Of a stretch of DNA of 64,000 nt, positions 20,341-34,319 are shown in pieces; position 1 is the first letter of the stretch; every line of letters begins with the position of its first letter. The stretch is from an uncultured Bacteroidales bacterium (GTDB lineage Bacteria > Bacteroidota > Bacteroidia > Bacteroidales > VadinHA17), in assembly GCA_963828395.1 (NCBI GenBank), contig CAWHED010000004.1:98899-162898 (forward strand), written 5' to 3'. The notes under the pieces were generated by a model, which did not search any database, was not told the DNA's origin, and saw only the letters and a list, made by a program, of their open reading frames with translations. The position numbers and the translations under genes were made by a program.

Positions 20341-21799
20341 CTATATTTCCCAGCCGGGACGGTATTCACGGGTAGCATAAAGATTAGCCTCCGGAACATT
20401 TGTCACTCTCATATTCTGACTATCCCATTGCAATCTCTGACCCCCCATTCTGATAGCGAGGTTTCCCAGGGCAATGGTTTCTGAGATAGGCTGGACATTT
20501 TTAAAATTGCCCCTGGATGGTCTTATTCCCTTAAAAGCATTATTCATTTCATCCTTTGACAATGCAAGGTACTCCTCCGGCACTTTGATAGATGCTGCGA
20601 TTTCATCTCCATTATCAACACTAAAAATTTGCATATCGTTGTATCCGTCAAAGGCAGTATAAATAACACCCTTTTCACCTATGAATAAAACACCTCCGGC
20701 GTCACTAAGATCCACACCTTTGTCAACCATGGCTCTTGGTGTCGGGGGTTTCATATTGCCGTCATACCAATAGACATCTATATTTTCATTCTTATCCAAT
20801 ACAGGGACATCCCAATGAATTCTTGAGGCCCAGGGGAAAGAGAGTTTATTTTCAATTTTTTTAAAAACGAAGTTATTGAGTTCGTAATGAATACTGCAAT
20901 CAGCCTTTGCGCTAACGGGCACTCCCAAATTCAGTACCCGCCAGTCTCTCCAGAAACCGTAAAATGCCATATCACAAAGGACACCTCCCCCGAATTCAAA
21001 CCAGCCCCTGTAAACAAAATGAGTATATTCAGGAGAGTATGGACGATCCGTACTGGGTCCGAGCCATAACTGCCAGTCAAATCCTTCAGGAATTGGTTGT
21101 GGCTCAGGCAAGGTAGCTTTGGCCTGTGGCCAGGTGGGACGGTTGGTCCACCGGTGCAGTTCAGTTACTTTTCCGATAATGCCCTGCTTCATCAGCTGCA
21201 TCATTGTATATGTCTTTGGCGGATCCTGAAAAAAATAGCAGTGCGTCGGAACTCCAGAATATATTAGCATAGTCTATTGAGGCACGGACTTCATTCAGGA
21301 AGTTGGAAATTGGTTTATGAGTGGCCACATTAACATTCTTTTTCATTGCGGCAATGTTAATTGGAGCATGTAAATGATCCGGAGTAAAATTAAATACGGC
21401 ATCCAGTCCTTTTTCTTTTTCAAGAAGCTCCCTGAAATCAGCATAGGCGTTACAACCTTTGTATATTCCTTTCCCGTTATTTTCTGCATAAGCCTTTTCT
21501 ACCCTTCTCCTGCCTTCTTCACGACCACCCGGGGCCCCGCCCGGGCGCCCCGGATATTTATTGCTGTCTTTTTCGGGATCACAGACTGAGGTAATCTGGT
21601 AAGCGGGGTCTTTCAGATATCCGTTAAGCGCACCCAACCCCATCATGCCACAACCTATCAGGGCGACGTTCATTCTGTCACTGGGGGCTATCTTTCCGGA
21701 ACCACCCAAAACATGCGACGGAATTATACTTAGAGCTATTCCGGAAGCTGCGGTTTTTTTTATAAAATCGCGACGGTTGAGATCCTTTTTTGCATTCAT
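20341..21799 (-). pseudogene. Tat-exported Gfo/Idh/MocA-family oxidoreductase, split by a frameshift near 21255-21275
   Basis: ORF 21161..21799 carries the Tat leader (NRRDFIKKTAASG) and Rossmann fold (MNVALIGCGMMG) up to ..THKPISNFLNEVRASIDYA. ORF 20341..21270 continues in another frame with ..IYSGVPTHCYFFQDPP..., the C-terminal domain. The junction lies in the AT-rich run gctaatatattctgg. Confidence 0.8.
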
Positions 21800-21871: not shown

Positions 21872-23137
21872 CTATGTATCAGGCATCAGTATAAATTCAA
21901 AGCAGGCAAAATTATTTCCCCGGTTATAGTGAAATGTAAGCAAATGAAGCCCTGGTTCATAAAAAGTGATCCTCCCTATCTCTGCTTTATTCCATTTGTG
22001 CATGCTTCCGGTTGCAAGCGGAAGTATGCATTCGCTGGCAGGTTTATTATTAACAGAAAAATTAATGGTATTGGCATCGTTTGCATAAAGTGCAACAATC
22101 TTATATGTACCGGCTATTTTGACATCCACCGTGTAATTGACCCATTCATTATCCTCGGTCCAGCCAATATATAGTTGGTTTATCGGAGGTGTGAAATAAT
22201 TCTCGTTGTGATTGAAATCTGCAAAGTCCTTGGTATATGAAATATCTACAGCTTCGTCTTTACGAAAATTCCAATGATAGGCCGTTGCATGCGGCCGTTG
22301 GTGATCCGGTATTTGATTGAGTTCACCAGCGCCCCTGTTTAAAGGCTCAAAGTCGTGATAGGCTACTCCCTCACCACCCATGTCATAGAATGCACATTCA
22401 ATTTTGCCGGAAATAACCTGGGCTCCTGCTTTATAATTAATGTCTTCGTAAGGTTTTCCTTTATAATCTGAGGGGACTGACATCTGGTTTTCTGAGGCTA
22501 ATGCGCTAATTGCCACAGAGGGTTTGGCCCAGGGGATGAATTCCAGGTACTGGACGTTCATGAACCCTGTCCTGACGAACTTCAGGGTGAGTACATGCGG
22601 GCCCTTCTCCATTTCGATCTCAGCAATGTTGTTGAACAGCCGCCATGTATGGACATGACCAGTGGTCTCCATATTAATCGCACCTGTCTTGTCAACACCA
22701 TCAACCGAGAGACTGATCTCCGTGGAATCTCTGGCCACTGAAGAGAGTATGTTGATCTGGTACGTACCGGCGGTCTTGACGTCCACGCTGTAGTTCAGCC
22801 ATTCTTCCGGTATGATCCAACCGACATAGTATTTGTCGAATGGCAAGGCTGTTCCGTCTAAGAACTTATCAAGGCCAGGTTTAGTGACAGATATACCTAC
22901 CTCATATCTGCCGTTGCGAGCCAGCCCGATCCCTTCGCTTCCGTTGTTTTTCGCAGCAGGATTATGGAAGGCAACTCCTTCGCCACCCTCATCATAAAAT
23001 GCTGCGGTGATCTTGCCGGGGATAACCTGCCTCTCTCCGTTCCATGGTTTGCTCTTAAGGTCAATTGGCAATGCCGCGCTGATACTAATGACCAAAGCGA
23101 TACCAAAAATACCGGCGATAATTGTTCCTGCTTTCAT
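21872..23137 (-). CDS. Exported protein with two tandem CBM6-like carbohydrate-binding modules
   Basis: There is an internal duplication. Repeat 1: IPGKITAAFYDEGGEGVAFH..YVGWIIPEEWLNYSVDVKTAGTYQI. Repeat 2: ISGKIECAFYDMGGEGVAYHD..YIGWTEDNEWVNYTVDVKIAGTYKI. An N-terminal hydrophobic signal is present. Confidence 0.6.
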   Translation of the reverse strand: MKAGTIIAGIFGIALVISISAALPIDLKSKPWNGERQVIPGKITAAFYDEGGEGVAFHNPAAKNNGSEGIGLARNGRYEVGISVTKPGLDKFLDGTALPFDKYYVGWIIPEEWLNYSVDVKTAGTYQINILSSVARDSTEISLSVDGVDKTGAINMETTGHVHTWRLFNNIAEIEMEKGPHVLTLKFVRTGFMNVQYLEFIPWAKPSVAISALASENQMSVPSDYKGKPYEDINYKAGAQVISGKIECAFYDMGGEGVAYHDFEPLNRGAGELNQIPDHQRPHATAYHWNFRKDEAVDISYTKDFADFNHNENYFTPPINQLYIGWTEDNEWVNYTVDVKIAGTYKIVALYANDANTINFSVNNKPASECILPLATGSMHKWNKAEIGRITFYEPGLHLLTFHYNRGNNFACFEFILMPDT

Positions 23138-23240: not shown

Positions 23241-23266
23241 AAAAAGCCCGGGATTGAATCCCGGGC
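23241..23266 (-). terminator. Rho-independent terminator of the trx operon
   Basis: Minus strand reads GCCCGGGA-UUCAA-UCCCGGGC followed by U5. It lies 105 nt downstream of the thioredoxin stop. Confidence 0.65.
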
Positions 23267-23370
23267 CCTTAAGCACAATCAGAGAGTCGCTGTTCCGAGC
23301 CCACATGAGAATCAATAATATCAGGACGGTTATCCTGAATTATTGAATTGAAATTACCTTTAATGACCTG

Positions 23371-23790
23371 CTATCTGACATTATTTATCTGCTGCAAAAG
23401 GTACTGCTCGCTCCTGACACCAACAATACGGTTTACTTCTTTCCCGTCTTTAAAGAGAATCATCGTAGGGATATTCCTTATCTGGTATTTTTGTGCAAGA
23501 GCCTGGTATTGTTCAATATTTACCTTCCCCACATAAGCATTTCCTGTAAGCTCATCAGCAACATCATTCAAAACCGGAGCCATCATTCTGCATGGCGCGC
23601 ACCAGCTTGCCCAGAAATCTACGAGTACAATCCTGTTTTTTGTCTGATGCTGAAAATTGACGTCAGTAAGGGTAATAATATTCTTATGATTTTCCACCGG
23701 AGGAATGTTTTTCATTCTGGCACGCGCTATTAAAAACAACATACCAAATACAATGATAAAGGCGCCGGTTATAATAAGGGCAGTTTTCAT
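23371..23790 (-). CDS. Membrane-anchored thioredoxin (WCAPC active site)
   Basis: N-terminal TM helix (ALIITGAFIIVFGMLFLIA), then VLVDFWASWCAPCRMMAPVL and the cis-Pro region IRNIPTMILF. Confidence 0.85.
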   Translation of the reverse strand: MKTALIITGAFIIVFGMLFLIARARMKNIPPVENHKNIITLTDVNFQHQTKNRIVLVDFWASWCAPCRMMAPVLNDVADELTGNAYVGKVNIEQYQALAQKYQIRNIPTMILFKDGKEVNRIVGVRSEQYLLQQINNVR

Positions 23791-23791
23791 A

Positions 23792-24763
23792 TTACACCAA
23801 TGAATTTTGTTTTTGTTTGATTTTCAATTCGTTCAGATAACCTGAGGCTGCGAGGGCAGCAATTGTACCATCACCAACGGCAGTTGTGATCTGCCTGAAG
23901 CGCTTTGCAGTACTGTCACCGGCAGCATAGACCCCCTCGATATTTGTTGACATGTCGCTTTTTACCATAACCTCACCCCACTTATTCAGATCAATTCTGC
24001 CGTTCAGAAATTCGGTGTTTGGCACATATCCTATGAAAATGAACGCTCCGTCAGTTTTGAAATTCATTATTTCTCCTGATGCCAGGTTTTTAATGTCGGC
24101 ACTTTCAAGTTTTTCAGAACCATAAAAAGCTGTGATGGCAGATTCCATGATAAAATGGATCTTATTGTTCCTCTTTGCCTCCTCAACGGCATGCTCAAAA
24201 GCCTGAAAGTGATCAAACTGATGGATTATTGTGACTTTACTGGCATACTTTGTGAGTGAAACAGCTTCTTCAAGAGCCGAATTGCCCCCTCCGACCACAA
24301 TAATTTCTTTACCGGTAAAAAAATCGCCGTCACATGTGGCACAGTAGGAAATACCTCTGCCTTTGAAGCTGTCTTCACCCGTTACTCCAAGTGTGCGTGA
24401 CCTTCCCCCAGGAGTTAAAATAATGGCATTTGCTGAAAATACAGGACCATCCTTAAGAATAACTTCTTTTACTTCTCCGGTCAGATCAAAATCGCTTACA
24501 GAAACATTTGTTTTAATATCACAGCCAAAGCTTTTTGCCTGTTTTTTCATGATATCGGAGAGTTTGTATCCGCTGATACTTTCAACTCCGGGATAGTTTG
24601 CAATTTCATGGGTAAGCACCATCTGACCTCCGGCAACACCTTCATCAATTATAAGTGTCCTGTACCTGGCGCGTGACAGGTAAATGCCTGCCGTAAGTCC
24701 GGCAGGCCCTGCACCAACTACTATTGCATCGTAGTGATTAGCAGCGTTCATTTTATAAAGCAT
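23792..24763 (-). CDS. trxB: Thioredoxin-disulfide reductase family flavoprotein with atypical pyridine-nucleotide site
   Basis: FAD fold DAIVVGAGPAGLTAG, redox-active CATCDG and GGGNSALEEA. The HRRxxxR NADPH motif is replaced by HQFDHFQ. The start could instead be MNAAN at 24751. Confidence 0.85.
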   Translation of the reverse strand: MLYKMNAANHYDAIVVGAGPAGLTAGIYLSRARYRTLIIDEGVAGGQMVLTHEIANYPGVESISGYKLSDIMKKQAKSFGCDIKTNVSVSDFDLTGEVKEVILKDGPVFSANAIILTPGGRSRTLGVTGEDSFKGRGISYCATCDGDFFTGKEIIVVGGGNSALEEAVSLTKYASKVTIIHQFDHFQAFEHAVEEAKRNNKIHFIMESAITAFYGSEKLESADIKNLASGEIMNFKTDGAFIFIGYVPNTEFLNGRIDLNKWGEVMVKSDMSTNIEGVYAAGDSTAKRFRQITTAVGDGTIAALAASGYLNELKIKQKQNSLV

Positions 24764-25112
24764 TTACAACTGCGGATAATTCCTTGTCCAGGATAGCCTT
24801 TACCTGCTCTTTGGTCTGAATACTGGAGGTAGCTTTTACTACTTTTCCGCCCTTGTAATAAATTGTAAAAGGAATCCCCATGAAACCGCGTACTTCAGAC
24901 AGGTTTCGGATAACGTATGACTCCGGATTATCATACTCCATATCATAGAACTTAACATGCTTGTAAACATCTTCAAGTTCTTCGGCAATCCCGTAGACAG
25001 GGATACACATCGGGCCCATGCGTCCGCAGATGACCATAACGTTTTCGTTTTCGCTGATAGCCTTGTTAAGATCAGCAGCTGACATCAGGTGTTTCAAATT
25101 TGTGTATAACAT
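24753..25112 (-). CDS. Thioredoxin-fold protein with atypical CGRMGPMC motif
   Basis: 119 aa with a Trx-like layout (VMVICGRMGPMCIPVYG ... GIPFTIYYKGGK). It abuts or overlaps trxB. Confidence 0.6.
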   Translation of the reverse strand: MLYTNLKHLMSAADLNKAISENENVMVICGRMGPMCIPVYGIAEELEDVYKHVKFYDMEYDNPESYVIRNLSEVRGFMGIPFTIYYKGGKVVKATSSIQTKEQVKAILDKELSAVVNAL

Positions 25113-25137
25113 GATTTTTAGTTTTTAATTTATAGGG

Positions 25138-25145
25138 CAAAATTA
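25138..25145 (-). promoter_or_regulatory. Bacteroidota -7-like promoter element (TAATTTTG on the minus strand) for the trx operon
   Basis: The plus strand reads caaaatta, which fits TAnnTTTG. It lies 25 nt upstream of the ATG at 25112. Confidence 0.35.
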
Positions 25146-25222
25146 CGGCACATTGCACTATTACTAAAGGAAATGAGTGGATGGTATGACAACTTGCCTC
25201 TTGAATAAGCACAACTTTTTTA

Positions 25223-25236
25223 TTGATTTGGATTAA
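25223..25236. promoter_or_regulatory. Candidate Crp/Fnr-type box
   Basis: TTGAT-ttgg-ATTAA has one mismatch to TTGAT-N4-ATCAA. It sits in the divergent region between the trx operon and the Crp/Fnr gene. Confidence 0.2.
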
Positions 25237-25266: not shown

Positions 25267-25962
25267 ATGAAAACAATACTTGAAACGGACAAGGACTTTA
25301 TCTGTGACATCAATGCACCCTGCTTCCGGAATCTGCTGCCTGAGGAGGCGGCGCTGGTAAGCTCATCCAAAACCCAGGTATTCTTCCGTAAAGACGACAA
25401 TCTGACAAAACAGGGGGCATTTGCCTCATATGTGTTATTTGTCATTAATGGTCTGGCAAAGCAATATCTTGAAGGTGCCGGCACGAAGAACTTTAATCTC
25501 CGGATTATCAGGCCGGGCGAGTTTGTGGGTCTTTCAGGAGTGTTCTTTGGAAATGTTTTCAACTATTCCTCCATAGCCCTCACCGATTGCCAGGTCTTTC
25601 TGATAGAGAAAGAAACTATGGCTAAAGTAATCAGGCAAAATGGCTCGTTTGGTTTCTCAATCACTAAAAGGTACTGTGAGCAAAACGCCAACCTGTTAAA
25701 TACAGTGCGTAACCTTATGTACAAGCAGATGAACGGGCGGCTGGCAGATGCTTTATTATATATCGACAGTCTGAGGAATGAGGCTGAGGAGATATTCCAG
25801 CTTCTCTCACGAAAAGATATCGCCGACTTTGCCGGGATATCAACTGAAAGCGCTGTTAAACTGTTGAAAACCTTTGAAAAAGATGGTCTGATCGAATTGC
25901 ATGAAAAGGACATAAACCTGGTGAACCACGATGCGATGATTGAAATCAGTAGAAGAGGTTAA
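25267..25962 (+). CDS. Crp/Fnr-family transcriptional regulator
   Basis: cNMP-binding-like N-domain (RIIRPGEFVG) and a C-terminal HTH (LSRKDIADFAGISTESAVKLLKTFEKDGLI). Confidence 0.85.
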   Translation: MKTILETDKDFICDINAPCFRNLLPEEAALVSSSKTQVFFRKDDNLTKQGAFASYVLFVINGLAKQYLEGAGTKNFNLRIIRPGEFVGLSGVFFGNVFNYSSIALTDCQVFLIEKETMAKVIRQNGSFGFSITKRYCEQNANLLNTVRNLMYKQMNGRLADALLYIDSLRNEAEEIFQLLSRKDIADFAGISTESAVKLLKTFEKDGLIELHEKDINLVNHDAMIEISRRG

Positions 25963-25978
25963 TTCCACACTAATTTAT

Positions 25979-26608
25979 ATGAATGAATTTGACATAAAAG
26001 CCGCAGGATGGGACAAGGACCCAATGCATTGGGATCGCTCGGTAACTATTACAACCCTGATTAAGAAACTCATCCCACTAAACAGGCAGATGACTGCTCT
26101 TGAATATGGCGCCGGAACAGGGATAGCCAGTTTCCTGCTGAAAGATGATCTGAAAGAAATCACATTGATGGACAGTTCATCCGAAATGGTGAGGATAACA
26201 GAAGAAAAGATAAAAACCTCAGAAGTAAAAAACCTGAAAACCCTGAACTTTGACCTGGAACATTCGGACTATAAAGGCAGAAAGTTTGACCTTATATTTA
26301 CACAAATGGTGCTTCATCATGTCACGGATATTGAGAACATTATCAGAAAATTTTATAATCTGCTAAATCCTGGCGGTCATCTTGCAATTGCTGATCTGTA
26401 TCCTGAAGACGGATCATTTCATGGTAAAGAATTCACCGGTCATAAAGGCTTTGATCCGGAAGAATTGTCAAAGCTGATCTTAAGACCCGGTTTCAAAAAT
26501 ATTAGTTACCAAAAATGTTATGTTCTTAAAAAAAGAATTTCGGATTCTGAAACAAAGCAACTTGATGTTTTTCTCCTGATTGCTAAACGTGATGGAATAA
26601 ATCAATAA
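25979..26608 (+). CDS. Class I SAM-dependent methyltransferase
   Basis: Motif I ALEYGAGTGIAS and the post-I acidic residue. Start taken at MNEFD, which removes the overlap with the regulator gene. Confidence 0.8.
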   Translation: MNEFDIKAAGWDKDPMHWDRSVTITTLIKKLIPLNRQMTALEYGAGTGIASFLLKDDLKEITLMDSSSEMVRITEEKIKTSEVKNLKTLNFDLEHSDYKGRKFDLIFTQMVLHHVTDIENIIRKFYNLLNPGGHLAIADLYPEDGSFHGKEFTGHKGFDPEELSKLILRPGFKNISYQKCYVLKKRISDSETKQLDVFLLIAKRDGINQ

Positions 26609-26617
26609 ACGATCATA

Positions 26618-27022
26618 ATGAATATGGAAGTAACATTCGACGGCGGCAAAGTAATTACAGCACACTTAAATGGCCATGTCATAAGAACAGATCAACCCAT
26701 AAAGGCAGGCGGACTGAATTCAGCTCCGGCCCCTTACGATCTGTTCCTGGCATCAATAGGAACCTGCGCTGGTATTTATGTTAAATCATTCTGTGATCAG
26801 CGTGAAATTCCCTCAGAAAATATTAAGATTATTCAAACTATTGAATTTGATAGCCAGACCAGGTTACCGGCTAATATCCGGCTGGATATTCAGTTGCCCT
26901 CTGATTTTCCTGAAAAATATAAGTCTGCAGTTATTAATGCTGCAGAATTATGCGCAGTTAAAAAGACAATCAACAATCCCCCAAACTTTGAAGTAGTAAC
27001 ATCAGTGCGTAATGCTGTTTGA
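26618..27022 (+). CDS. OsmC-family protein (peroxiredoxin-like)
   Basis: 134 aa, with APYDLFLASIGTCAGIY and AELCAVKKTI, the two conserved Cys regions of OsmC/Ohr-like proteins. Confidence 0.8.
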   Translation: MNMEVTFDGGKVITAHLNGHVIRTDQPIKAGGLNSAPAPYDLFLASIGTCAGIYVKSFCDQREIPSENIKIIQTIEFDSQTRLPANIRLDIQLPSDFPEKYKSAVINAAELCAVKKTINNPPNFEVVTSVRNAV

Positions 27023-27246: not shown

Positions 27247-27621
27247 ATGGATTTATTAACGTTCATAATTCTTATTGTTATCGGCTTAGTTACCGGAGCA
27301 GTTGGAGGAATGCTTGGAATTGGTGGTGCATTAATCTTAATACCTGCATTAGTATATTTTGTTGGCTTTAGTCAACATGAAGCGATTGGTACAAGTTTGG
27401 CAGTTATGTTGCCCCCTATAGGATTGTTTGCCGCGTATAATTATTATAAAGCAGGGCAAGTGAATATAAAATATGCTTTAATAATTGCGGCTGCTTTCAT
27501 GATAGGAAGTTATTTTACGTCCAAACTGGCTCTTAAGATTCCGGAAGACATAATAAGAAAAATTTTCGGCGTTTTTCTTTTTTTAATTGCATTAAAAATG
27601 TTTTTTCAAGGTAATAGTTAA
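27247..27621 (+). CDS. TauE/SafE (TSUP) family membrane protein, half-length
   Basis: VTGAVGGMLGIGGALILIPALVYF is the TSUP signature. The ORF is only 124 aa (about 4 TM) and ends exactly where a gene fragment begins. Confidence 0.65.
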   Translation: MDLLTFIILIVIGLVTGAVGGMLGIGGALILIPALVYFVGFSQHEAIGTSLAVMLPPIGLFAAYNYYKAGQVNIKYALIIAAAFMIGSYFTSKLALKIPEDIIRKIFGVFLFLIALKMFFQGNS

Positions 27622-28700: not shown

Positions 28701-29324
28701 TCAGCAGCCGCCGGCAGGCTTCTTCTTGGCCTTTGCCGTCACCACAGGCTTGGCTGTCTTCACTGCCGTAGAGGCACCTTCCGTGGTAACAACACCGCCT
28801 CCGCCAAGCGCTGTGGCAGCACTCTTGCGGAAGTCGTACTTTGCGAACTCCTCGTTGGCACTGGTCTGCGACGGCGCCTGCGCCGACAGAATATTGCCAA
28901 ACCAGTAATTCAATCCGCCCTCCAGTACAAAGTTGTTCTCATAGCCAAGCTGCCTTGTCAGCATCCATGCTTCATTGGCCAGGACCGACCCGTTTGAATA
29001 AAAGACATTCATACGGGCATCCTGATGGAGGATATCGGTGTACTCTTCTGATAACAGGTTACTCAGGGGGATGTTGATAGCCCCCTGCAGGCTGTATGCC
29101 TCAAATTCCTCCGGCGTACGCACGTCAATAAGCTGCAGAGACGGATCCTTCTGAACGAGCATATCGGCAATGACATCAGGCGAGACGAACTGCACACCAG
29201 CCCCGGCTTCCTGCAGCAGCTCATCGGCTGATAGTTTAAAACGCTTTGTCCTGTCAGCCGGAACAGCGGCAAGGATTATCCCGAGCGGGATAATTATAAG
29301 TGCCAGTAATCTGATTGGTTTCAT
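28701..29324 (-). CDS. Exported/anchored rhodanese-like protein with Ser at the catalytic position and a low-complexity tail ending in Cys
   Basis: LIDVRTPEEFEAYSLQGAINIPL...NVFYSNGSVLANEAW...VLEGGLNYW, then the tail ..GGGGVVTTEGASTAVKTAKPVVTAKAKKKPAGGC*. Confidence 0.8.
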   Translation of the reverse strand: MKPIRLLALIIIPLGIILAAVPADRTKRFKLSADELLQEAGAGVQFVSPDVIADMLVQKDPSLQLIDVRTPEEFEAYSLQGAINIPLSNLLSEEYTDILHQDARMNVFYSNGSVLANEAWMLTRQLGYENNFVLEGGLNYWFGNILSAQAPSQTSANEEFAKYDFRKSAATALGGGGVVTTEGASTAVKTAKPVVTAKAKKKPAGGC

Positions 29325-29436
29325 AAGTATATATTTTAGTTTTTATTGGTCTTATATAACCCGTATTCTGGATTGTTGTATTCATAAAAGTTTATTATGA
29401 AATGCATGCGGGTTACATGATATTTTATTTTTGATT

Positions 29437-30027
29437 TTAATACTCTTCTCTGGGGAATTTTTTCTCTGCCCACTCAGCTACAGCAAACATTGCCAGCGCT
29501 ACAAGGATAAGTAACAGGCCGAAGAGCCCGTCTTTCATGCCCAGTGACTCACTTACCCTGGGTTCACCGAGATAATGTGCGAAGTACATTTTCTCCCAGA
29601 GAGGGTAAGTGAATGCGAAGCCATACACACCGATGAAAAGACCCAGAACAAAAACCATTCCGTCAATTTTTCCTATAGCTGCTCCCGTGAAGCTTGTTCC
29701 GGGGCAGAAGCCGCCCATGATGAAGCCGGCTCCCATCACCACACCACCCACTATGGCGGAGGTTAGATAGGTTGGATTGACATAGACAAGGTCAAGGTCG
29801 ATCCATCCAAAGAGGCTCATAAACAGTAATCCTATCATGCATGTGATGGCTCCGGTGAAGAAGACCTTGAGAACTACGGCATCATAGCCGTAGAATATGC
29901 CGGCCAGCTTTCTGCTTGATGAGAAACCCGAGCTCTCAAGTACAAATCCGAAAGCGATGCCGATGAAGAATGCGAGGAGAAAATTTGTGTTCTCCGTTAT
30001 AATGCCGTTTGGTGCTAATGGTCCCAT
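29437..30027 (-). CDS. YeeE/YedE-family (sulfur/thiosulfate transport) membrane protein, C-terminal-half homologue
   Basis: Multi-TM protein with the conserved GGFCPGTS motif. Confidence 0.8.
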   Translation of the reverse strand: MGPLAPNGIITENTNFLLAFFIGIAFGFVLESSGFSSSRKLAGIFYGYDAVVLKVFFTGAITCMIGLLFMSLFGWIDLDLVYVNPTYLTSAIVGGVVMGAGFIMGGFCPGTSFTGAAIGKIDGMVFVLGLFIGVYGFAFTYPLWEKMYFAHYLGEPRVSESLGMKDGLFGLLLILVALAMFAVAEWAEKKFPREEY

Positions 30028-30043
30028 TTTGTTCTCCTTCCTT

Positions 30044-30580
30044 TTATATCCAGTTTCTTCTGAAGAAATATGCCAGTCCGAAGGCTGTGCCGAAGATGGC
30101 CATCATGGTAATGAAGCCCCCCAGTGACAGCACTCCCATGCCGCTCAGGGCTGAGCCGCTGGTACATCCGCGTCCGAGCTGAGAGCCGAAGCCAAAGAGT
30201 GTCCCTCCCATGAGTGCGAAGATCAATCTGCGCCCCGAGGTTATCTTCGGTGAATGTTCTACTTTCAGCTTCAGACGTCCGGCAAGCGCCCCGGAAATGA
30301 AACCACCGACGAGCACACCCAGCATCTCAAAGACAAGCCATGATCTCATTGGGCTGCCGCTGTGCGACTGCGCATATTCAGCCATGAATGGCATTGTGTT
30401 AACGGCGTCTTTATGGACAACCTCAATGGTTGTGGCCACAACGCTCTTGATGGCGCCGCTGGCTCCGAGACCCCTTCCTGAGATGAAGTTGGCAGCAAGC
30501 AGTACGAGGCCCAGCAGTACGCCTCCCAGGTACGGATTGAGGTATCTTCTGCTCCTCTCTGTTTTCGAAATATTGCTCAT
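30044..30580 (-). CDS. YeeE/YedE-family membrane protein, N-terminal-half homologue
   Basis: Multi-TM protein with the LGRGCTSGSALSG motif. Confidence 0.8.
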   Translation of the reverse strand: MSNISKTERSRRYLNPYLGGVLLGLVLLAANFISGRGLGASGAIKSVVATTIEVVHKDAVNTMPFMAEYAQSHSGSPMRSWLVFEMLGVLVGGFISGALAGRLKLKVEHSPKITSGRRLIFALMGGTLFGFGSQLGRGCTSGSALSGMGVLSLGGFITMMAIFGTAFGLAYFFRRNWI

Positions 30581-30601
30581 ATTGTATTTATTTTATTGTG
30601 A

Positions 30602-31544
30602 TCAGTATAACCAGCGGCTCACCTGTCCGGCAAAGACAAAGACAAACCGGAACATAAGGCTCCCGAACAGTACCAGGACGCCCGGCACTATTGCAGGAAT
30701 ATGATATCCGCGTAGTTCCATCAGGTCAAGAAATGCGGGTATTACCAAACCCAGGAAGACAACGAAGATCCAGAAGGCCATCGTGTACTGCCCTCCCAGA
30801 AAAAGTCCGGCTGCCTCTACCTGCACCTGTGTGGATGCCAGGAATCCCATGAACATATGAACTATCAGAAAGAGTTCCACCCCCAGAATGATCAGGTCAA
30901 TTTTCGTGAAGAGCAGCCTCTCCTTCGGATCCCTCGACATAAGAACAATCGCCGCCGCACCTGCCGAGAGCCCTGAAGCTAAAAACAGCGGCCCGAGGAC
31001 CGAGGTATTCCACAGGGGCCTCGCATTAAAGGCAGAGAGAAGGATCCCGGTATATATGCCGGTAATAACTGCATAAATAAGAATCACCCATGCCAGTACC
31101 TTTTTGTATTTATTGAAGAAGGTCTCCAGATCCTTCAGCCACTGATATTTCCAGTCCCATTTCGGAAAAAGATCCCTGATGTGCAGGGCTGACCAGACAA
31201 CTGAGGCGGCGGTTATCACAAGCAGTGTCCATGCGCCCCACGACATAGGTGATTGCAGCCTGATGGCAGTATAGAGCTGCCAGAAATATGCTTTGTGACG
31301 CAAGTCAAAAAAGAGTGCTGCCAGACCGATAATTAGCAGTACAGGAGCGATAAACGGGACTTTGCGCACAGCTGTGGGATATTCTTTTTCTTTCCCCATG
31401 AGATAATAGAGTGCTGCAAAAAACAAGAATTCCTGCTGCAAGTCCGCCCAGAAACAGGTAAAGCGGAATGGGCCAGTGCCATATTTGCAGATGCGGGTCA
31501 ACCATCAGGTTTTCTCTTCCGCTGATAATAAGCTCTTCGTTCAT
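30602..31544 (-). pseudogene. NrfD/PsrC-type membrane anchor subunit of the molybdopterin reductase, frame broken at a homopolymer
   Basis: ORF 31305..31544 gives MNEELIISGRENLMVDPHLQIWHWPIPLYLFLGGLAAGILVF. ORF 30602..31501 continues in the +1 frame with FFAALYYLMGKEKEYP.... The junction is a T6 run on the minus strand (plus-strand A6 at 31418-31423). Removing one T restores ..AAGILVFAALYYLMGK... Confidence 0.8.
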
Positions 31545-31551
31545 TGTCTGC

Positions 31552-32085
31552 TCAGATTAGGAAATATAGCTGCGGGCGCGTTCCTGCCTCGGGAATAAGT
31601 GTCTTCGACTTGCGCTTCTTCAGTATGGCGCTTACATCGCTGTTCGGGTCGTCGAGGTCGCCAAAGTACATGCATTTGGTTGGACATACGGCCACACATG
31701 CGGGTTTCATCCCTTCCTTCACACGGTGGTAACAGAACGTGCATTTGTCGACGTATCCTTTTGGATGAGGGTAACGTGCATCGTACGGACAGGAAGCGAT
31801 ACAGGCGCCGCAGCCAATGCATCTGTTCTGTTTTACAAGTACAATGCCTCCTTCGGTTTTGTGGCTTGCACCTGTAGGGCAGCATCTGACGCAGGGCGCG
31901 TTGTCGCAGTGGTTGCAGCGCTCTGACCTAAGTTCTACCTCAAGCTGCGGGTATGTGCCATCCATTGTCTCCACTACCCAGTCGCGACAGTAACCTATAG
32001 GTACATCGTTTTCTGTCTGGCATGCCACGACACAGTCGCTGCATCCCACGCATTTCTTCGTATCAACAGCCATCGCATATCTCAT
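31552..32085 (-). CDS. 4Fe-4S ferredoxin-type electron-transfer subunit (PsrB/PhsB/NrfC-like)
   Basis: Four Cys clusters, e.g. CVGCSDCVVACQTEN, CNHCDNAPCVRCCP, CIGCGACIASCP and CTFCYHR. It overlaps the catalytic subunit gene by 4 nt. Confidence 0.9.
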   Translation of the reverse strand: MRYAMAVDTKKCVGCSDCVVACQTENDVPIGYCRDWVVETMDGTYPQLEVELRSERCNHCDNAPCVRCCPTGASHKTEGGIVLVKQNRCIGCGACIASCPYDARYPHPKGYVDKCTFCYHRVKEGMKPACVAVCPTKCMYFGDLDDPNSDVSAILKKRKSKTLIPEAGTRPQLYFLI

Positions 32086-34319
32086 GACGCCACCTCCTCT
32101 TTACCCAGGTCAGTAATGAAGGTCACGAAGTTGCCCCTCATGCCTGTCCCCCCCATGACCGGATCAGTCATAACATTTGTTATCAGTTTCGTGTCGTTCG
32201 CACCCCGGCCATAGGTCCTGGTCAGTTTCTTGTCAGCATGACCAAACCCGTGTACCATATACACAGAATCCCATCTGATCCTTTCGGTGATTCGTACTTT
32301 TATCGGAAAATCCGTCTCAACTCCATCCTGGTTCTTCATGTGAATGTATTGTCCTGACGACAATCCCCATTCTTTTGCCACGCGAGGATTGACCCAAAGG
32401 GAATTCTCATCCATCAGGTCAAAAAGATTAGCATTGTTGGATGTCCGGCTGAAAGTATGCATGGGCGCCCTTCCGTAAATGAGCCTGTAAAAGCCTTCGG
32501 GAGGTTCCGGATGCGGCGTATAAACCGGAAGCGGACCGAAACCCTCATTTTCCATGGTTGTCGAGTACAGCTCGATCTTTTCAGTATTGGTCCAGAATGA
32601 GATGTCTTCTCCTTCGCCGAAGAAGAGGTCACCGACCTCCCGTTCCCATGTTTTTACTCCCGCTTTCTTCATCTCTTCAAGTGAGCTTCCCATCTGTTTC
32701 AGCTGCCAGTCGAGCAGGTCTTCAATTTTCTCAAATGGGAAATACTCGCCCTTGCCCAGCCTTTTAGCCAGTTCACGTGCCATCCAGTATGCCGGTTTTG
32801 ATTCATATTTTGGTTCGACGGCAGGTATCCGCAGTGCGATTGCCGGTTTGCGATGCGGGCTGTCTCTCAGCAAGTCATAGCGCTCAAGATAAGTGCACTC
32901 GGGAAGCACCACATCAGCCCATCCTGTTATCTCCATCGGCATGGTGTCAACAGCAACTATGAGATCGAGGTTCTGTATGGCTTCAAGAGTATGCTCAGTA
33001 TCGGGAACCGTCAGTGGCAGGTTTGTCCCTGACACCAGCCAGCCTTTTATCATCGCTTCCTTTTCAGGGGCCGGGATGCTGGCATCAATGAGCACATTCG
33101 CCACACCCAGGTCAGCGAGATTGTATTTGCCGGGATACCATTCGCGCCATGTCTTTTCAGGTGCCGGGTACTCCGGATGCGGGTATACCGGGATGGTTTT
33201 ACCCTCTTGTTTATAGAAGCCTCCGCGGCGTCCCCATGAGCCAAGAAGGGCGTTCAGTATAGCCACTGCCCTTATACGCTGGGTGTCATCACCGTACCAG
33301 GTCACATGACGACCGGGATGCACAATTACTGCCGGTGACGCCTGCGCCATTTCGCGCGCCGTCTCCCTTATCACTGTCGGGTTTATGGTGGTTATACCGT
33401 ACGCCCATTCCGGAGTGAAGTTTCTGACGTGCTCTTTAAGTTCATCAAACCCGTGGCAGTATTTCCCGACGTATTTCTTATCGTAAAAATCATTGTAGAT
33501 GATCTCATGTATCCAGGCGAGCAGCAAGGCAAGATCAGTGGCAGGCTTGATGGGGAGCCAGTATTTTGATTTGCCGGCTGCCGTCGAGAATCGCGGATCG
33601 ACAGTGATGATAGTGGCGCCTTTATCAATAGCATCAGACATCTCCTGTACCTGTCCGTTATGCATGTTCTCCCCGATGTGCGATCCAATGAGCACAAGAC
33701 AGCGCGTGTCGCGTATGTCAGTGTTTTCAGGCGAGCCAGGATTCTCTCCGAAAGTGGCTGCAAAAGCCACATCGCGGGGTCCCCGGCACTGTGCGAACGA
33801 TGGCTGGGCATAATTCCCGGCTCCCAATGCTTTAAAAAGATCAGTGAAGTATTTTCCACCTGAACCGTGATAGAAGAGCGCAAGGCTCTCCGGACCGTTC
33901 TTCGCAATTATTTCTTTCATTTTGCCGGCAACATGATCCAGGGCCTCTTCCCAGGAAGCTTCCCGGAAAACCTGCTTTCCGCGCTCCTCAACTCTTATCA
34001 GGGGTACTTTAAGCCTGTCTTCATCATAATACATTCCGGGACCTCCTGTGCCGCGAGGACAGAATCTGCCGCTGCTGTGCTGGTCTTCATTATTCCCGGT
34101 GATCTTTTTAATGTTTCCCCCGTCATCTTTCCATACCCAGCCAGCGCATTTCCAGAAGCATACTTCACAGTATGTCGGGGTTCGTCCGGTGAGGACGGCC
34201 AGGGTGGCTTTCCGGCCTTCAGTGAGCTCTGAGCCTAAAAGCCTGAAGCCCGCTGCGCCTGTCATCACTGCTCCTGCCCCTATGGCTGAGATCCTGATGA
34301 ATTGCCTGCGTGTTGACAT
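32082..34319 (-). CDS. Tat-exported molybdopterin oxidoreductase catalytic subunit (polysulfide/thiosulfate/tetrathionate-reductase type)
   Basis: Tat leader MSTRRQFIRISAIGAGA and the N-terminal 4Fe-4S motif (CEVCFWKCAG..GRFCPRG). The 745-aa length is typical of PsrA/PhsA. Substrate cannot be assigned from sequence alone. Confidence 0.88.
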   Translation of the reverse strand: MSTRRQFIRISAIGAGAVMTGAAGFRLLGSELTEGRKATLAVLTGRTPTYCEVCFWKCAGWVWKDDGGNIKKITGNNEDQHSSGRFCPRGTGGPGMYYDEDRLKVPLIRVEERGKQVFREASWEEALDHVAGKMKEIIAKNGPESLALFYHGSGGKYFTDLFKALGAGNYAQPSFAQCRGPRDVAFAATFGENPGSPENTDIRDTRCLVLIGSHIGENMHNGQVQEMSDAIDKGATIITVDPRFSTAAGKSKYWLPIKPATDLALLLAWIHEIIYNDFYDKKYVGKYCHGFDELKEHVRNFTPEWAYGITTINPTVIRETAREMAQASPAVIVHPGRHVTWYGDDTQRIRAVAILNALLGSWGRRGGFYKQEGKTIPVYPHPEYPAPEKTWREWYPGKYNLADLGVANVLIDASIPAPEKEAMIKGWLVSGTNLPLTVPDTEHTLEAIQNLDLIVAVDTMPMEITGWADVVLPECTYLERYDLLRDSPHRKPAIALRIPAVEPKYESKPAYWMARELAKRLGKGEYFPFEKIEDLLDWQLKQMGSSLEEMKKAGVKTWEREVGDLFFGEGEDISFWTNTEKIELYSTTMENEGFGPLPVYTPHPEPPEGFYRLIYGRAPMHTFSRTSNNANLFDLMDENSLWVNPRVAKEWGLSSGQYIHMKNQDGVETDFPIKVRITERIRWDSVYMVHGFGHADKKLTRTYGRGANDTKLITNVMTDPVMGGTGMRGNFVTFITDLGKEEVAS

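What the first reader, a model, noticed from the sequence alone, without database searches (positions are those of the whole stretch)
23371..25145. Three-gene thioredoxin operon whose reductase lacks the NADPH HRRxxxR motif, flanked by two non-canonical thioredoxins
Seen in sequence. The three ORFs are tightly packed (1-nt gap and about 1-11 nt gap or overlap) and followed by a clean terminator. (1) A 119-aa Trx-fold protein has CGRMGPMC where WCGPC is expected. (2) A TrxR-family flavoprotein has FAD and CATC motifs and GGGNSA. Where E. coli TrxR has HRRDGFRA (the Arg residues that bind the NADPH 2'-phosphate), it reads HQFDHFQA. (3) A Trx with WCAPC sits behind an N-terminal TM helix whose flanking charges (MK / RARMK) suggest a cytoplasm-facing, membrane-tethered domain. 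Established knowledge. Loss of the HRR motif is characteristic of TrxR-like enzymes that do not use NADPH. Examples are the clostridial ferredoxin-dependent FFTR and NADH-linked or deeply rooted TrxR-like flavoenzymes. Inference. This may be a ferredoxin/flavodoxin- or NADH-driven thiol relay ending at the membrane. It is probably redox-regulated by the divergent Crp/Fnr gene.
Basis: partly seen in the sequence, partly recalled or inferred. Interest (0 to 1): 0.6.

Follow-up and report, generated by a model that had tools for sequence, protein, structure and literature searches.

The report
Accessory membrane-tethered thioredoxin system, Bacteroidales
This is a real, widely conserved but unstudied second thioredoxin system of anaerobic Bacteroidales, made of an odd thioredoxin-like protein, a thioredoxin reductase that has lost its NADPH-phosphate-binding arginines (so it probably runs on NADH), and a thioredoxin tethered to the inner face of the membrane, all next to their own Crp/Fnr regulator.

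Summary
Every sequence observation holds. Three abutting minus-strand genes end in a terminator:
- TrxL (24753-25112), a thioredoxin fold with CGRMGPMC.
- A TrxB paralogue (23792-24751; the true start gives 319 aa). It keeps FAD, CATC, thioredoxin-docking and GGGNSALEE motifs but reads HQFDHFQA where canonical enzymes read HRRDxxRA.
- A WCAPC thioredoxin behind one TM helix (23371-23790).

The genome also has a canonical TrxB elsewhere. These features are selected. In 80 related loci (Bacteroidales, Lentimicrobium, Ignavibacteria) the odd motifs are near-invariant and the gene order is conserved.

The reductase belongs to a well-supported 'HQF' clade that also holds Trx-TrxR fusions and members from Clostridia, Deltaproteobacteria and Asgard archaea. 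That clade is separate from canonical TrxB, and the enzyme is far from FFTR, TRi and DTR. The intact pyrophosphate motif and the lack of any linked ferredoxin favour NADH over ferredoxin. This is inferred, not shown.

In 53 orthologues the TM helix has 9 K/R on its N side and 157 on its C side, so the thioredoxin faces the cytoplasm. Two FNR-type boxes sit at fixed spacing from the operon's -7 promoter element.

This is a new variant of a known kind. The scan has met this operon before on other genomes.

The parts
24753..25112 (-). TrxL: 119-aa thioredoxin-fold protein with CGRMGPMC (Cys29, Cys36) instead of WCGPC. Cis-Pro loop GIPF is kept. First gene of the operon.
   Evidence: ORF. No Pfam hit; weak TIGR01068 match. 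AF2 pLDDT 91.3 with the classical Trx topology: beta2 24-30, alpha2 37-47. Foldseek top hits are all thioredoxins, TM about 0.8. Motif invariant in 78 orthologues.
23792..24751 (-). TrxB paralogue of the 'HQF' clade, 319 aa. Has FAD motif, CATC, KGRG and FF thioredoxin-docking residues and GGGNSALEE, with HQFDHFQA replacing HRRDxxRA. An upstream in-frame ATG at 24763 is probably not used.
23371..23790 (-). Membrane-tethered canonical thioredoxin (WCAPC). It has one N-terminal TM helix (about residues 4-22) followed by RARMK. Predicted topology is N-out/C-in, so the Trx domain lies in the cytoplasm.
   Evidence: Pfam PF00085 2.6e-29 and TIGR01068 at 115.5 bits, above the 96.8 cut-off. In 53 orthologues the N flank carries 9 K/R and the C flank 157.
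23241..23338 (-). Two terminator-like hairpins after the operon: 23321-23338, and a 13-bp GC-rich stem at about 23241-23270 followed by UUUUU.
   Evidence: z = -4.96.
25138..25145 (-). Bacteroidetes-type -7 promoter element TAATTTTG (consensus TAnnTTTG) of the trx operon, 33 nt upstream of the TrxL ATG.
   Evidence: Present in all 44 aligned intergenic regions, usually 31-48 nt before the ATG.
25201..25214 (.). FNR/CRP-type box B: TTGTGCTTATTCAA on the minus strand. Its centre lies 62 bp upstream of the -7 element.
   Evidence: A box of the form TTG/A-N-N-N4-N-N-C/TAA lies at exactly this 62-bp offset (61-64 bp) in about 34 of 44 loci.
25223..25236 (.). FNR/CRP-type box A: TTGATTTGGATTAA on the plus strand, 22 bp from box B. 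It abuts the regulator gene's own -7-like element.
   Evidence: TTAAT-N4-ATCAA lies 84 bp upstream of the -7 element in about 29 of 44 loci. The composite A+B site is unique in the 3.76-Mb genome.
25267..25962 (+). Divergent Crp/Fnr-family regulator (cNMP-binding plus HTH_Crp_2 domains) with conserved Cys13, Cys19 and Cys137.
   Evidence: Pfam. Found divergent and adjacent in 53 of 80 loci. Cysteine conservation 48/52, 52/52 and 47/52.
25940..27022 (+). Genes co-transcribed with the regulator: a class I SAM methyltransferase (25940-26608) and an OsmC-type thiol peroxidase-like protein (26618-27022).
   Evidence: Pfam. OsmC-like genes recur in 28 of the 80 related loci.

Best explanation
This is a dedicated, separately regulated second thioredoxin system.

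Reductase. The flavoenzyme is a low-Mr thioredoxin reductase that still works by the FAD / CATC-dithiol mechanism and still docks thioredoxin-type partners. Its pyridine-nucleotide site keeps the pyrophosphate-binding loop. All three arginines that hold the 2'-phosphate of NADPH have been replaced (R to Q, R to F, R to Q). It therefore most likely draws electrons from NADH, or has lost its NADPH preference. This would uncouple the branch from the housekeeping NADPH-TrxB encoded elsewhere in the genome.

Acceptors. Electrons go to a canonical WCxPC thioredoxin held at the cytoplasmic face of the inner membrane by an N-out/C-in anchor. They probably also go to TrxL, a very conserved thioredoxin-fold protein with an unusual C-x6-C site.

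Regulation and role. A divergent Crp/Fnr regulator with conserved cysteines binds two conserved FNR-type boxes and controls the operon. Recurrent neighbours are OsmC, DUF302, a Trx-Grx fusion, Cpn10 and rhodanese. In this window YeeE, TauE and Psr-like genes are nearby. This points to thiol, oxidant or reactive-sulfur stress handling at the membrane.

Shown: the motifs, their conservation, the clade placement, the synteny, the topology signal and the boxes. Inferred: the donor, the acceptors, the regulator's signal and the physiological role.
For: - Motif replacement at exact alignment positions. It is near-invariant in 81 orthologues, as are CATC, KGRG, DFF and GGGNSALEE.
- A canonical TrxB (364.6 bits, VRRDVLRA) lies elsewhere in the genome.
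- Phylogeny: the family (99) sits inside an HQF clade (95). That clade holds N-terminal Trx(CPPC)-TrxR fusions, which shows that HQF enzymes reduce Trx domains. Its sister (91) is a clade with AhpF-like E-F or Q-D motifs. It is separate from the canonical TrxBs.
- Of 118 broader relatives from Clostridia, Deltaproteobacteria and Asgard archaea, 103 carry HQF together with GGGNSA.
- Published rule: GGGxxAxE is conserved in NADPH- and NADH-type reductases and degenerate in ferredoxin-, F420- and NAD(P)H-independent ones (PMC5627308).
- The AF2 model best matches NAD(P)H-type TrxRs.
- Positive-inside count of 9 vs 157 K/R.
- Synteny and boxes.
- All 46 genomes in the order sample that have the reductase also have TrxL.
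Against: - No member of the HQF clade is known to me to have been assayed.
- The motif lacks the acidic residue at the end of beta2 that typifies strict NADH enzymes such as AhpF (EF).
- Thermoplasma acidophilum TrxR also lacks HRR and is listed as a non-NAD(P)H enzyme (PMC5627308), so loss of HRR alone does not prove NADH use.
- I could not fetch the NADH-type reference sequences (DvTR3, T. maritima TR, Cp34) to place them in the tree.
- In the order sample, 12 of 58 TrxL-positive genomes gave no orthologue match at E <= 1e-80. Of the 10 whose TrxL locus was fetched, 7 hold an orphan TrxL gene and 3 hold TrxL in a Crp-TrxL-TM-Trx cluster without the reductase, one of them with a CoA-disulfide-reductase-rhodanese fusion after TM-Trx. 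TrxL is therefore not an obligate partner.
Confidence: 0.55

Rival explanations
1. The reductase takes electrons from a non-pyridine donor, as FFTR, DTR, DFTR or DvTRi do. The donor could be ferredoxin, flavodoxin, another low-potential carrier, or TrxL itself acting as a carrier.
For: The HRR arginines are lost, as in all those enzymes. The host lineages are anaerobes. T. acidophilum TrxR is a precedent for loss of HRR without NADH use. TrxL is an unexplained, extremely conserved partner that is encoded first in the operon.
Against: GGGNSALEE is invariant here, but degenerate in FFTR, DFTR and TRi. PDB E-values are 1e-74 to NADPH-TrxR, against 1e-34 to FFTR (6gna), 8e-56 to DTR (5j60) and 6e-27 to DvTRi (5nii). 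No ferredoxin or flavodoxin gene is conserved in 80 loci. TrxL has only two cysteines and an ordinary thioredoxin fold.
Confidence: 0.2
2. The enzyme is still an NADPH-dependent, or dual-specificity, thioredoxin reductase. The operon would then simply be a stress-inducible duplicate of TrxB/TrxA.
For: The score is only 10 bits below the TIGR01292 cut-off. His177 and Asp180 of the HRRD motif are retained. There is no acidic residue to repel a 2'-phosphate. Public annotations call it 'thioredoxin reductase (NADPH)'.
Against: All three phosphate-binding arginines are replaced by uncharged Q, F and Q, and this is invariant over many families. No conserved compensating basic residue lies in or beside the motif. 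The family forms a long-separated clade, at most 46% identical to anything outside it.
Confidence: 0.2
3. The anchored thioredoxin is exported, with the N-terminal segment acting as a Sec signal or type II anchor. It would then work in the periplasm like TlpA, ResA or CcmG, so the cytoplasmic reductase would not be its direct donor.
For: In this window the helix ends in A-R-A, which resembles a signal-peptidase site. Bacteroidota have many periplasmic thioredoxin-fold proteins.
Against: Most orthologues have no K/R before the helix (MQT, MST, MHT), while nearly all have about three after it (R-x-K-M-K-N). The totals are 9 vs 157 in 53 sequences. The A-x-A is not conserved. The gene abuts the reductase gene in about 55 of 80 loci.
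Confidence: 0.08

Closest known systems
Canonical low-Mr NADPH-thioredoxin reductase (TrxB, TIGR01292; e.g. D. radiodurans 2q7v, B. cereus 7aaw, E. coli 1tde)
   Same: Same fold and length. FAD motif, CATC redox disulfide, GR/KG and FF thioredoxin-docking residues and the GGGxxAxE pyrophosphate loop are all present. 40-44% identity to the best solved structures.
   Different: HRRDxxRA is replaced by HQFDxFQA. The score is below the curated cut-off. The protein sits in a separate clade. It is a second copy beside a true TrxB, encoded with TrxL and an anchored thioredoxin under a Crp/Fnr regulator.
NADH-preferring DvTR3 / 'dcTR1' group of Desulfovibrio and Clostridium (Valette et al. 2017, PMC5627308)
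   Same: The pyrophosphate motif is conserved and the 2'-phosphate motif is lost. It is a paralogue beside TR1 in anaerobes and is encoded with its own unusual thioredoxin. Other members of the HQF clade show the His-Tyr-Cys and Met/Pro features described for that group.
   Different: This family keeps Ser-Tyr-Cys, GRG and FF, which are canonical thioredoxin-docking features. I could not obtain the DvTR3 sequence, so common clade membership is not verified. DvTrx3 is a soluble thioredoxin described in PMC5627308 as non-canonical; TrxL is not shown to resemble it, and DvTrx3 is not a membrane-anchored Trx.
Ferredoxin-dependent flavin thioredoxin reductase (FFTR, 6gna), DTR (5j60), DvTRi (5nii)
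   Same: TrxR-fold enzymes of anaerobes or deep-branching bacteria that lack the HRR arginines.
   Different: Those enzymes have degenerate GxGxxA motifs and are much more distant (E-values 1e-34, 8e-56 and 6e-27, against 1e-74 for canonical TrxR). DvTRi has TQGK and GEGxxAxN. No ferredoxin is linked here.
AhpF and AhpF-homologue (TIGR03143) NADH:peroxiredoxin reductases
   Same: A TrxR-like module with a non-arginine 2'-site. TIGR03143 matches the reductase module at 332 bits. The neighbourhood has a peroxidase theme (OsmC).
   Different: There is no fused thioredoxin-fold domain and no adjacent AhpC. AhpF has the E-F signature rather than H-Q-F.
Classical thioredoxin (TrxA), as the comparison for TrxL and the anchored Trx
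   Same: Both have the beta-alpha-beta-alpha-beta-alpha-beta-beta-alpha fold and the cis-Pro loop. The anchored protein has WCxPC.
   Different: TrxL has no CxxC. Cys36 sits at the N-cap of helix alpha2, Val39 occupies the usual resolving position, and a second Cys lies 7 residues upstream at the end of beta2. The anchored Trx carries an N-out/C-in membrane anchor, which I do not know from characterised bacterial cytoplasmic thioredoxins.

Membership tests
Low-Mr thioredoxin reductase TrxB (TIGR01292) | FAD-binding GxGxxG and a redox-active CxxC (CATC) in the NAD(P)H domain | tested here: met
   GAGPAG and ISYCATCDG are present. C137 and C140 are invariant in 81 orthologues.
Low-Mr thioredoxin reductase TrxB (TIGR01292) | Pyrophosphate-binding GGGxxAxE | tested here: met
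   GGGNSALEE is invariant.
Low-Mr thioredoxin reductase TrxB (TIGR01292) | 2'-phosphate-binding VxxxHRRDxxRA | tested here: not met
   The protein reads VTIIHQFDHFQA, in ungapped alignment with HRRDTLRA.
Low-Mr thioredoxin reductase TrxB (TIGR01292) | Score above the curated equivalog cut-off, and clustering with canonical TrxB | tested here: not met
   333.6 bits is below the 343.45 cut-off. The protein forms a separate clade, while the genome's own TrxB groups with E. coli TrxB.
FFTR (clostridial ferredoxin-dependent flavin thioredoxin reductase) | Both NADPH motifs (GxGxxA and HRRxxxR) are degenerate, and the sequence clusters with 6gna-type proteins | tested here: not met
   GGGNSA is intact. 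6gna scores 9.5e-34, against 1.2e-74 for 2q7v.
DvTRi-type NAD(P)H-independent TR | TQ/NGK in place of HRRD, and GEGxxAxN | tested here: not met
   The protein has HQFD and GGGNSALEE. 5nii scores only 6.3e-27.
TR3/dcTR1 NADH-type TR (Valette 2017) | GGGxxAxE kept and HRR lost | tested here: met
TR3/dcTR1 NADH-type TR (Valette 2017) | His replaces Ser before CxxC, and the thioredoxin-docking Phe is replaced by Met or Pro | tested here: not met
   ISY and DFF are retained. Other members of the HQF clade (P0246, P0248, P0253, P0268) do show HY and M/P.
TR3/dcTR1 NADH-type TR (Valette 2017) | Same clade as DvTR3 (YP_009601.1), and NADH preference measured | not testable with these tools
   The reference sequence could not be fetched and the papers are not held.
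AhpF | N-terminal double thioredoxin-fold domain fused to the TrxR module, with AhpC as partner | tested here: not met
   The protein is 319 aa and only the C-terminal module of TIGR03140 matches. No AhpC lies in the loci.
Thioredoxin (PF00085 / TIGR01068): anchored Trx | WCxPC active site, cis-Pro loop, and a score above cut-off | tested here: met
   WCAPC and IPT are present. The score of 115.5 bits exceeds the 96.8 cut-off.
Thioredoxin (PF00085 / TIGR01068): TrxL | Thioredoxin fold | tested here: met
   AF2 pLDDT 91. Foldseek probability 1.00 to many thioredoxins.
Thioredoxin (PF00085 / TIGR01068): TrxL | CxxC active site, and a family score above cut-off | tested here: not met
   The site is CGRMGPMC (C-x6-C). 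There is no Pfam hit, and TIGR01068 gives 19.6 bits against a 96.8 cut-off.
Crp/Fnr regulators | cNMP-binding domain plus a C-terminal Crp-type HTH | tested here: met
   PF00027 at 2.9e-13 and PF13545 at 4.3e-11.
FNR proper ([4Fe-4S] oxygen sensor) | N-terminal C-x2-C-x5-C plus a central Cys that bind the cluster | tested here: inconclusive
   Cys13-x5-Cys19 and Cys137 are conserved and Cys108 is variable. The spacing differs from E. coli FNR, and NF008365 matches only the HTH.

The most novel reading that the evidence does not exclude
TrxL may not be just another substrate thioredoxin. It could be a new kind of thiol or sulfur carrier, for example a persulfide-accepting or monothiol thioredoxin whose nucleophilic Cys36 is resolved by Cys29. 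Together with an NADH-linked HQF reductase and a membrane-tethered thioredoxin, it would form a dedicated pathway for reactive-sulfur or thiosulfate handling at the membrane. Candidate clients are the YeeE, rhodanese, TauE and Psr neighbours. The HQF clade as a whole, from Bacteroidales to Clostridia to Asgard archaea, would then be an unrecognised NADH-driven thioredoxin reductase class of anaerobes.
Probability: 0.18. Interest if true: 0.75.

Novelty: new variant of a known kind. Interest (0 to 1): 0.55.

Why it matters
Thioredoxin systems are usually taken to be NADPH-driven, with one TrxB per bacterium. Here a large clade of TrxB paralogues, present in about a quarter of sampled Bacteroidales and also in Clostridia, Deltaproteobacteria and Asgard archaea, has replaced the NADPH-specifying arginines with an invariant HQF..FQ signature while keeping the dinucleotide loop.

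If these enzymes use NADH, many fermentative anaerobes could wire disulfide reduction directly to catabolic NADH. If they use something else, that would be a new donor class. Automated annotation ('thioredoxin reductase (NADPH)') would be wrong for thousands of genes.

The operon also supplies two testable novelties. One is a Pfam-less, 80-90% conserved thioredoxin-fold family with a C-x6-C site. The other is a cytoplasm-facing, membrane-anchored thioredoxin. Both come with a dedicated Crp/Fnr regulator and a defined operator.

Tried and rejected
- FFTR, DTR, DDOR and TRi membership: rejected on motif content and PDB E-values.
- TrxL as a split-off domain of the AhpF-homologue TIGR03143, or as the N-terminal domain of the Trx-TrxR fusions: BLAST found no real similarity (E = 0.73). 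The fused domains are ordinary CPPC thioredoxins and resemble the anchored Trx instead.
- Sequence register of the TrxL active site: HMMER and hhalign give three different registers. I relied on the secondary structure of the AF2 model. Model coordinates are not exposed, so the Cys29-Cys36 distance and the nucleotide pocket could not be measured.
- Signal-peptide reading of the anchor: rejected on charge statistics.
- Fetching the NADH-type references: the DvTR3, T. maritima TR and Cp34 papers are not held. The supplements hold no sequences. Literature searches for the HQFD motif or for NADH-TrxR in Bacteroidetes found nothing relevant.
- A profile search around the HQF clade returned no named Desulfovibrio protein, but it did show how widely the clade is spread.
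- A wider regulon: the composite two-box operator is unique in the genome, so no regulon could be drawn.
- The simple terminator scan missed the strong GC hairpin, which RNA folding recovered.
Full report
**What is there.**
On the minus strand three ORFs abut.
- TrxL, 24753-25112, 119 aa.
- A TrxR-like gene, 23792-24763. Almost all close homologues are 319 aa, so the start is Met5 at 24751, 1 nt after the TrxL stop.
- A 139-aa thioredoxin, 23371-23790, 1 nt after the reductase stop.

Two hairpins follow the third gene. The second is a 13-bp GC-rich stem plus U5 at about 23241-23270 (z = -4.96). The next gene is an unrelated CBM6/CBM35 protein.

Upstream and divergent lie a Crp/Fnr regulator (25267-25962), a SAM methyltransferase and an OsmC-like protein.

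**The reductase.**
- Pfam gives Pyr_redox_2 (1.8e-48).
- NCBIfam gives TIGR01292 at 333.6 bits, just under the 343.45 cut-off. It also matches the reductase module of the AhpF-homologue model TIGR03143.
- The best solved relatives are ordinary NADPH-TrxRs: 2q7v at 1.2e-74 and 7aaw at 1.6e-72.
- The non-NADPH types are far weaker: DTR 5j60 at 8e-56, FFTR 6gna at 9.5e-34 and DvTRi 5nii at 6.3e-27.
- Ungapped alignments place VTIIHQFDHFQA on VTVIHRRDTLRA. The three arginines that bind the 2'-phosphate of NADPH are therefore Gln, Phe and Gln.
- Everything else that defines a working TrxR is present: GAGPAG, KGRG, ISYCATCDGDFF and GGGNSALEE.
- An AF2 model (pLDDT 83.9) best matches the TrxRs of Thermosipho africanus, B. 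cereus and L. lactis.

The same genome has a canonical TrxB on another contig (364.6 bits, VRRDVLRA). The window's enzyme is therefore an extra paralogue.

**Selection, not decay.**
The search for related loci returned 80 loci from Bacteroidales, Lentimicrobium, Prolixibacteraceae, Rikenellaceae, Alkaliflexus imshenetskii DSM 15055, Draconibacterium and Ignavibacteria.

In 81 orthologues:
- H177, F179, F182, Q183 and A184 are 100% conserved.
- Q178 is 99% conserved.
- CATC, DFF and GGGNSA are invariant.

No conserved basic residue appears in or beside the motif.

**Where the reductase sits in the TrxR family.**
A search of 1.84 billion representatives shows a tight family (at least 60% identity) followed by a gap to 46% or less.

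In a tree of 161 sequences:
- The family has SH-aLRT support of 99.
- It nests in a 21-member clade (support 95) whose members nearly all read HQF or HEF ... FQ.
- This clade includes 420-435-aa proteins with an N-terminal CPPC thioredoxin fused to the reductase.
- Its sister (support 91) is a small clade with AhpF-like E-F or Q-D motifs, one member of which is fused to a glutaredoxin-like domain.
- The genome's own TrxB groups with E. coli TrxB elsewhere in the tree.

A profile of the outer HQF members retrieved 118 further proteins from Clostridia, Deltaproteobacteria, Lokiarchaeum and Promethearchaeota. Of these, 103 read HQF with GGGNSA intact.

Valette et al. 2017 (PMC5627308) report a rule for the pyrophosphate motif GGGxxAxE. 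It is conserved in the NADPH-type TR1 and the NADH-type TR3. It is degenerate in enzymes that use ferredoxin or F420, and in the NAD(P)H-independent TRi. By that rule this enzyme still binds a dinucleotide but no longer selects for the 2'-phosphate, which makes NADH the most likely donor.

Caveats:
- There is no acidic residue at the end of beta2, as AhpF has.
- T. acidophilum TrxR is a precedent for loss of HRR without NAD(P)H use.
- The reference NADH enzymes could not be fetched.

**TrxL.**
- It has no Pfam hit and only a weak thioredoxin signal.
- The family is large (4522 hits) and extraordinarily conserved, at 82-92% identity among the top 120.
- AF2 gives a confident classical thioredoxin fold (pLDDT 91.3), with beta2 at 24-30 and alpha2 at 37-47. 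Foldseek finds only thioredoxins.
- CGRMGPMC is invariant, and many orthologues read CCGRMGPMC.
- Sequence aligners disagree on the register. In the model, Cys36 is the N-cap of alpha2, the place of the nucleophilic Cys32 of E. coli thioredoxin. Pro38 matches the CGPC proline, Val39 takes the resolving position, and Cys29 ends beta2.
- Two divergent paralogues have Ser at position 36 but keep CGRM.

TrxL is therefore best described as a thioredoxin with a displaced second cysteine. Its chemistry is unknown.

**Anchored thioredoxin.**
It is a bona fide thioredoxin above cut-off. In 53 orthologues the 2-7 residues before the helix carry 9 K/R in total. The 12 residues after it carry 157, in a conserved R-x-K-M-K-N motif. 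This is an N-out/C-in anchor, not a Sec signal, so the redox domain faces the cytoplasm, where the reductase is.

**Gene order and distribution.**
- TrxL-TrxR adjacency holds in essentially all loci whose contig allows it.
- The anchored Trx follows directly in about 55 of 80 loci.
- The Crp/Fnr gene is divergent in 53 of 80 loci.
- Other recurrent neighbours are OsmC (28 loci), DUF302 (25), a Trx-Grx fusion (22), Cpn10 (20) and a membrane 4Fe-4S protein (8).

In an even sample of the order, 58 of 201 genomes have TrxL and 46 of 201 have the reductase orthologue. All 46 are among the TrxL-positive genomes. In a class-wide sample only 2 of 301 have TrxL.

The other 12 TrxL-positive genomes gave no orthologue match at E <= 1e-80. 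Ten of their TrxL loci were fetched:
- In seven, TrxL shows none of the operon's partner genes among the detected neighbours: six are orphan genes in unrelated contexts and one (L098) sits beside the Crp/Fnr and OsmC genes.
- In three, TrxL lies in a Crp-TrxL-TM-Trx cluster without the reductase. In one of these a CoA-disulfide-reductase-rhodanese fusion follows TM-Trx; a second has an HQF-type Trx-TrxR fusion starting about 2 kb downstream.

A second TrxL copy (Cys36 to Ser) in one genome that does have the orthologue also sits about 2 kb from such a fusion.

**Regulation.**
The 154-bp divergent intergenic region carries three elements:
- a Bacteroidetes-type -7 element, TAATTTTG (25138-25145, minus strand);
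- box B, TTGTGCTTATTCAA (25201-25214), with its centre 62 bp upstream of the -7 element;
- box A, TTAATCCAAATCAA (25223-25236), with its centre 84 bp upstream.

Both boxes resemble the FNR consensus TTGAT-N4-ATCAA. Each offset recurs in roughly two thirds or more of the 44 aligned loci. The composite site is unique in the genome. The regulator keeps Cys13, Cys19 and Cys137 in at least 90% of 52 orthologues. Control by this regulator is therefore well supported. What it senses is not known.

**Context in this window.**
Within 9 kb lie:
- a half-size TauE (27247-27621);
- an exported rhodanese (28701-29324);
- two YeeE/YedE halves (29437-30580);
- a Psr/Phs-like molybdopterin oxidoreductase with its 4Fe-4S and NrfD subunits (30602-34319).

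This agrees with earlier notes of this scan on other genomes, which linked the same operon to sulfur handling. It is suggestive only.

**Verdict.**
NADH is favoured over ferredoxin, the cytoplasmic membrane tether and the Crp/Fnr link are supported, and the donor, acceptors and signal remain untested. It is a new variant of a known kind, the low-Mr TrxR/Trx system. I found no characterisation of it, and the scan has seen it before on other DNA.

Noticed in passing
window 28701-34319 (minus strand) and 27247-27621 (+): A sulfur-handling cluster lies close to the operon. It holds an exported rhodanese, two half-size YeeE/YedE (Sulf_transp) genes and a Psr/Phs-like molybdopterin oxidoreductase with its 4Fe-4S and NrfD subunits. 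A half-length TauE/SafE gene lies between this cluster and the operon.
   Followed up: partly
window 20341-21799 (minus strand): Two overlapping ORFs in different frames (21161-21799 and 20341-21270). The first has a twin-arginine-like leader and a Rossmann N-terminus. Together they look like one oxidoreductase split by a frameshift or a sequencing error.
   Followed up: no
L091:3902-6178: In one relative the slot after TrxL and the anchored Trx is filled by a 758-aa CoA-disulfide-reductase-like protein fused to three rhodanese domains. A second Pyr_redox_2 protein follows it. The HQF reductase is absent.
   Followed up: partly
L092-L095, L097, L099 (TrxL at about 3000-3900 in each): Orphan TrxL genes (CCGRMGPMC, about 60% identical) stand alone in unrelated contexts, in genomes where no HQF reductase orthologue was found at E <= 1e-80.
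   Followed up: partly
L100:2821-6588 and L101:3178-4270: Divergent TrxL paralogues with Cys36 replaced by Ser (CGRMD...S). They still follow the same Crp/Fnr gene and precede an anchored Trx plus a soluble Trx. In L100 there are also a rhodanese and an HQF-type Trx(CPPC)-TrxR fusion.
   Followed up: partly
proteins P0398, P0464, P0505: HQF-type TrxR paralogues with intact GGGNSA occur in Asgard archaea (Candidatus Lokiarchaeum ossiferum, Promethearchaeota), as well as in Clostridia and Deltaproteobacteria.
   Followed up: no
window 21872-23137 (minus strand): The gene just downstream of the operon's terminator encodes a secreted protein with two carbohydrate-binding modules (CBM6 and CBM35). 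It is unrelated to the thioredoxin genes.
   Followed up: no
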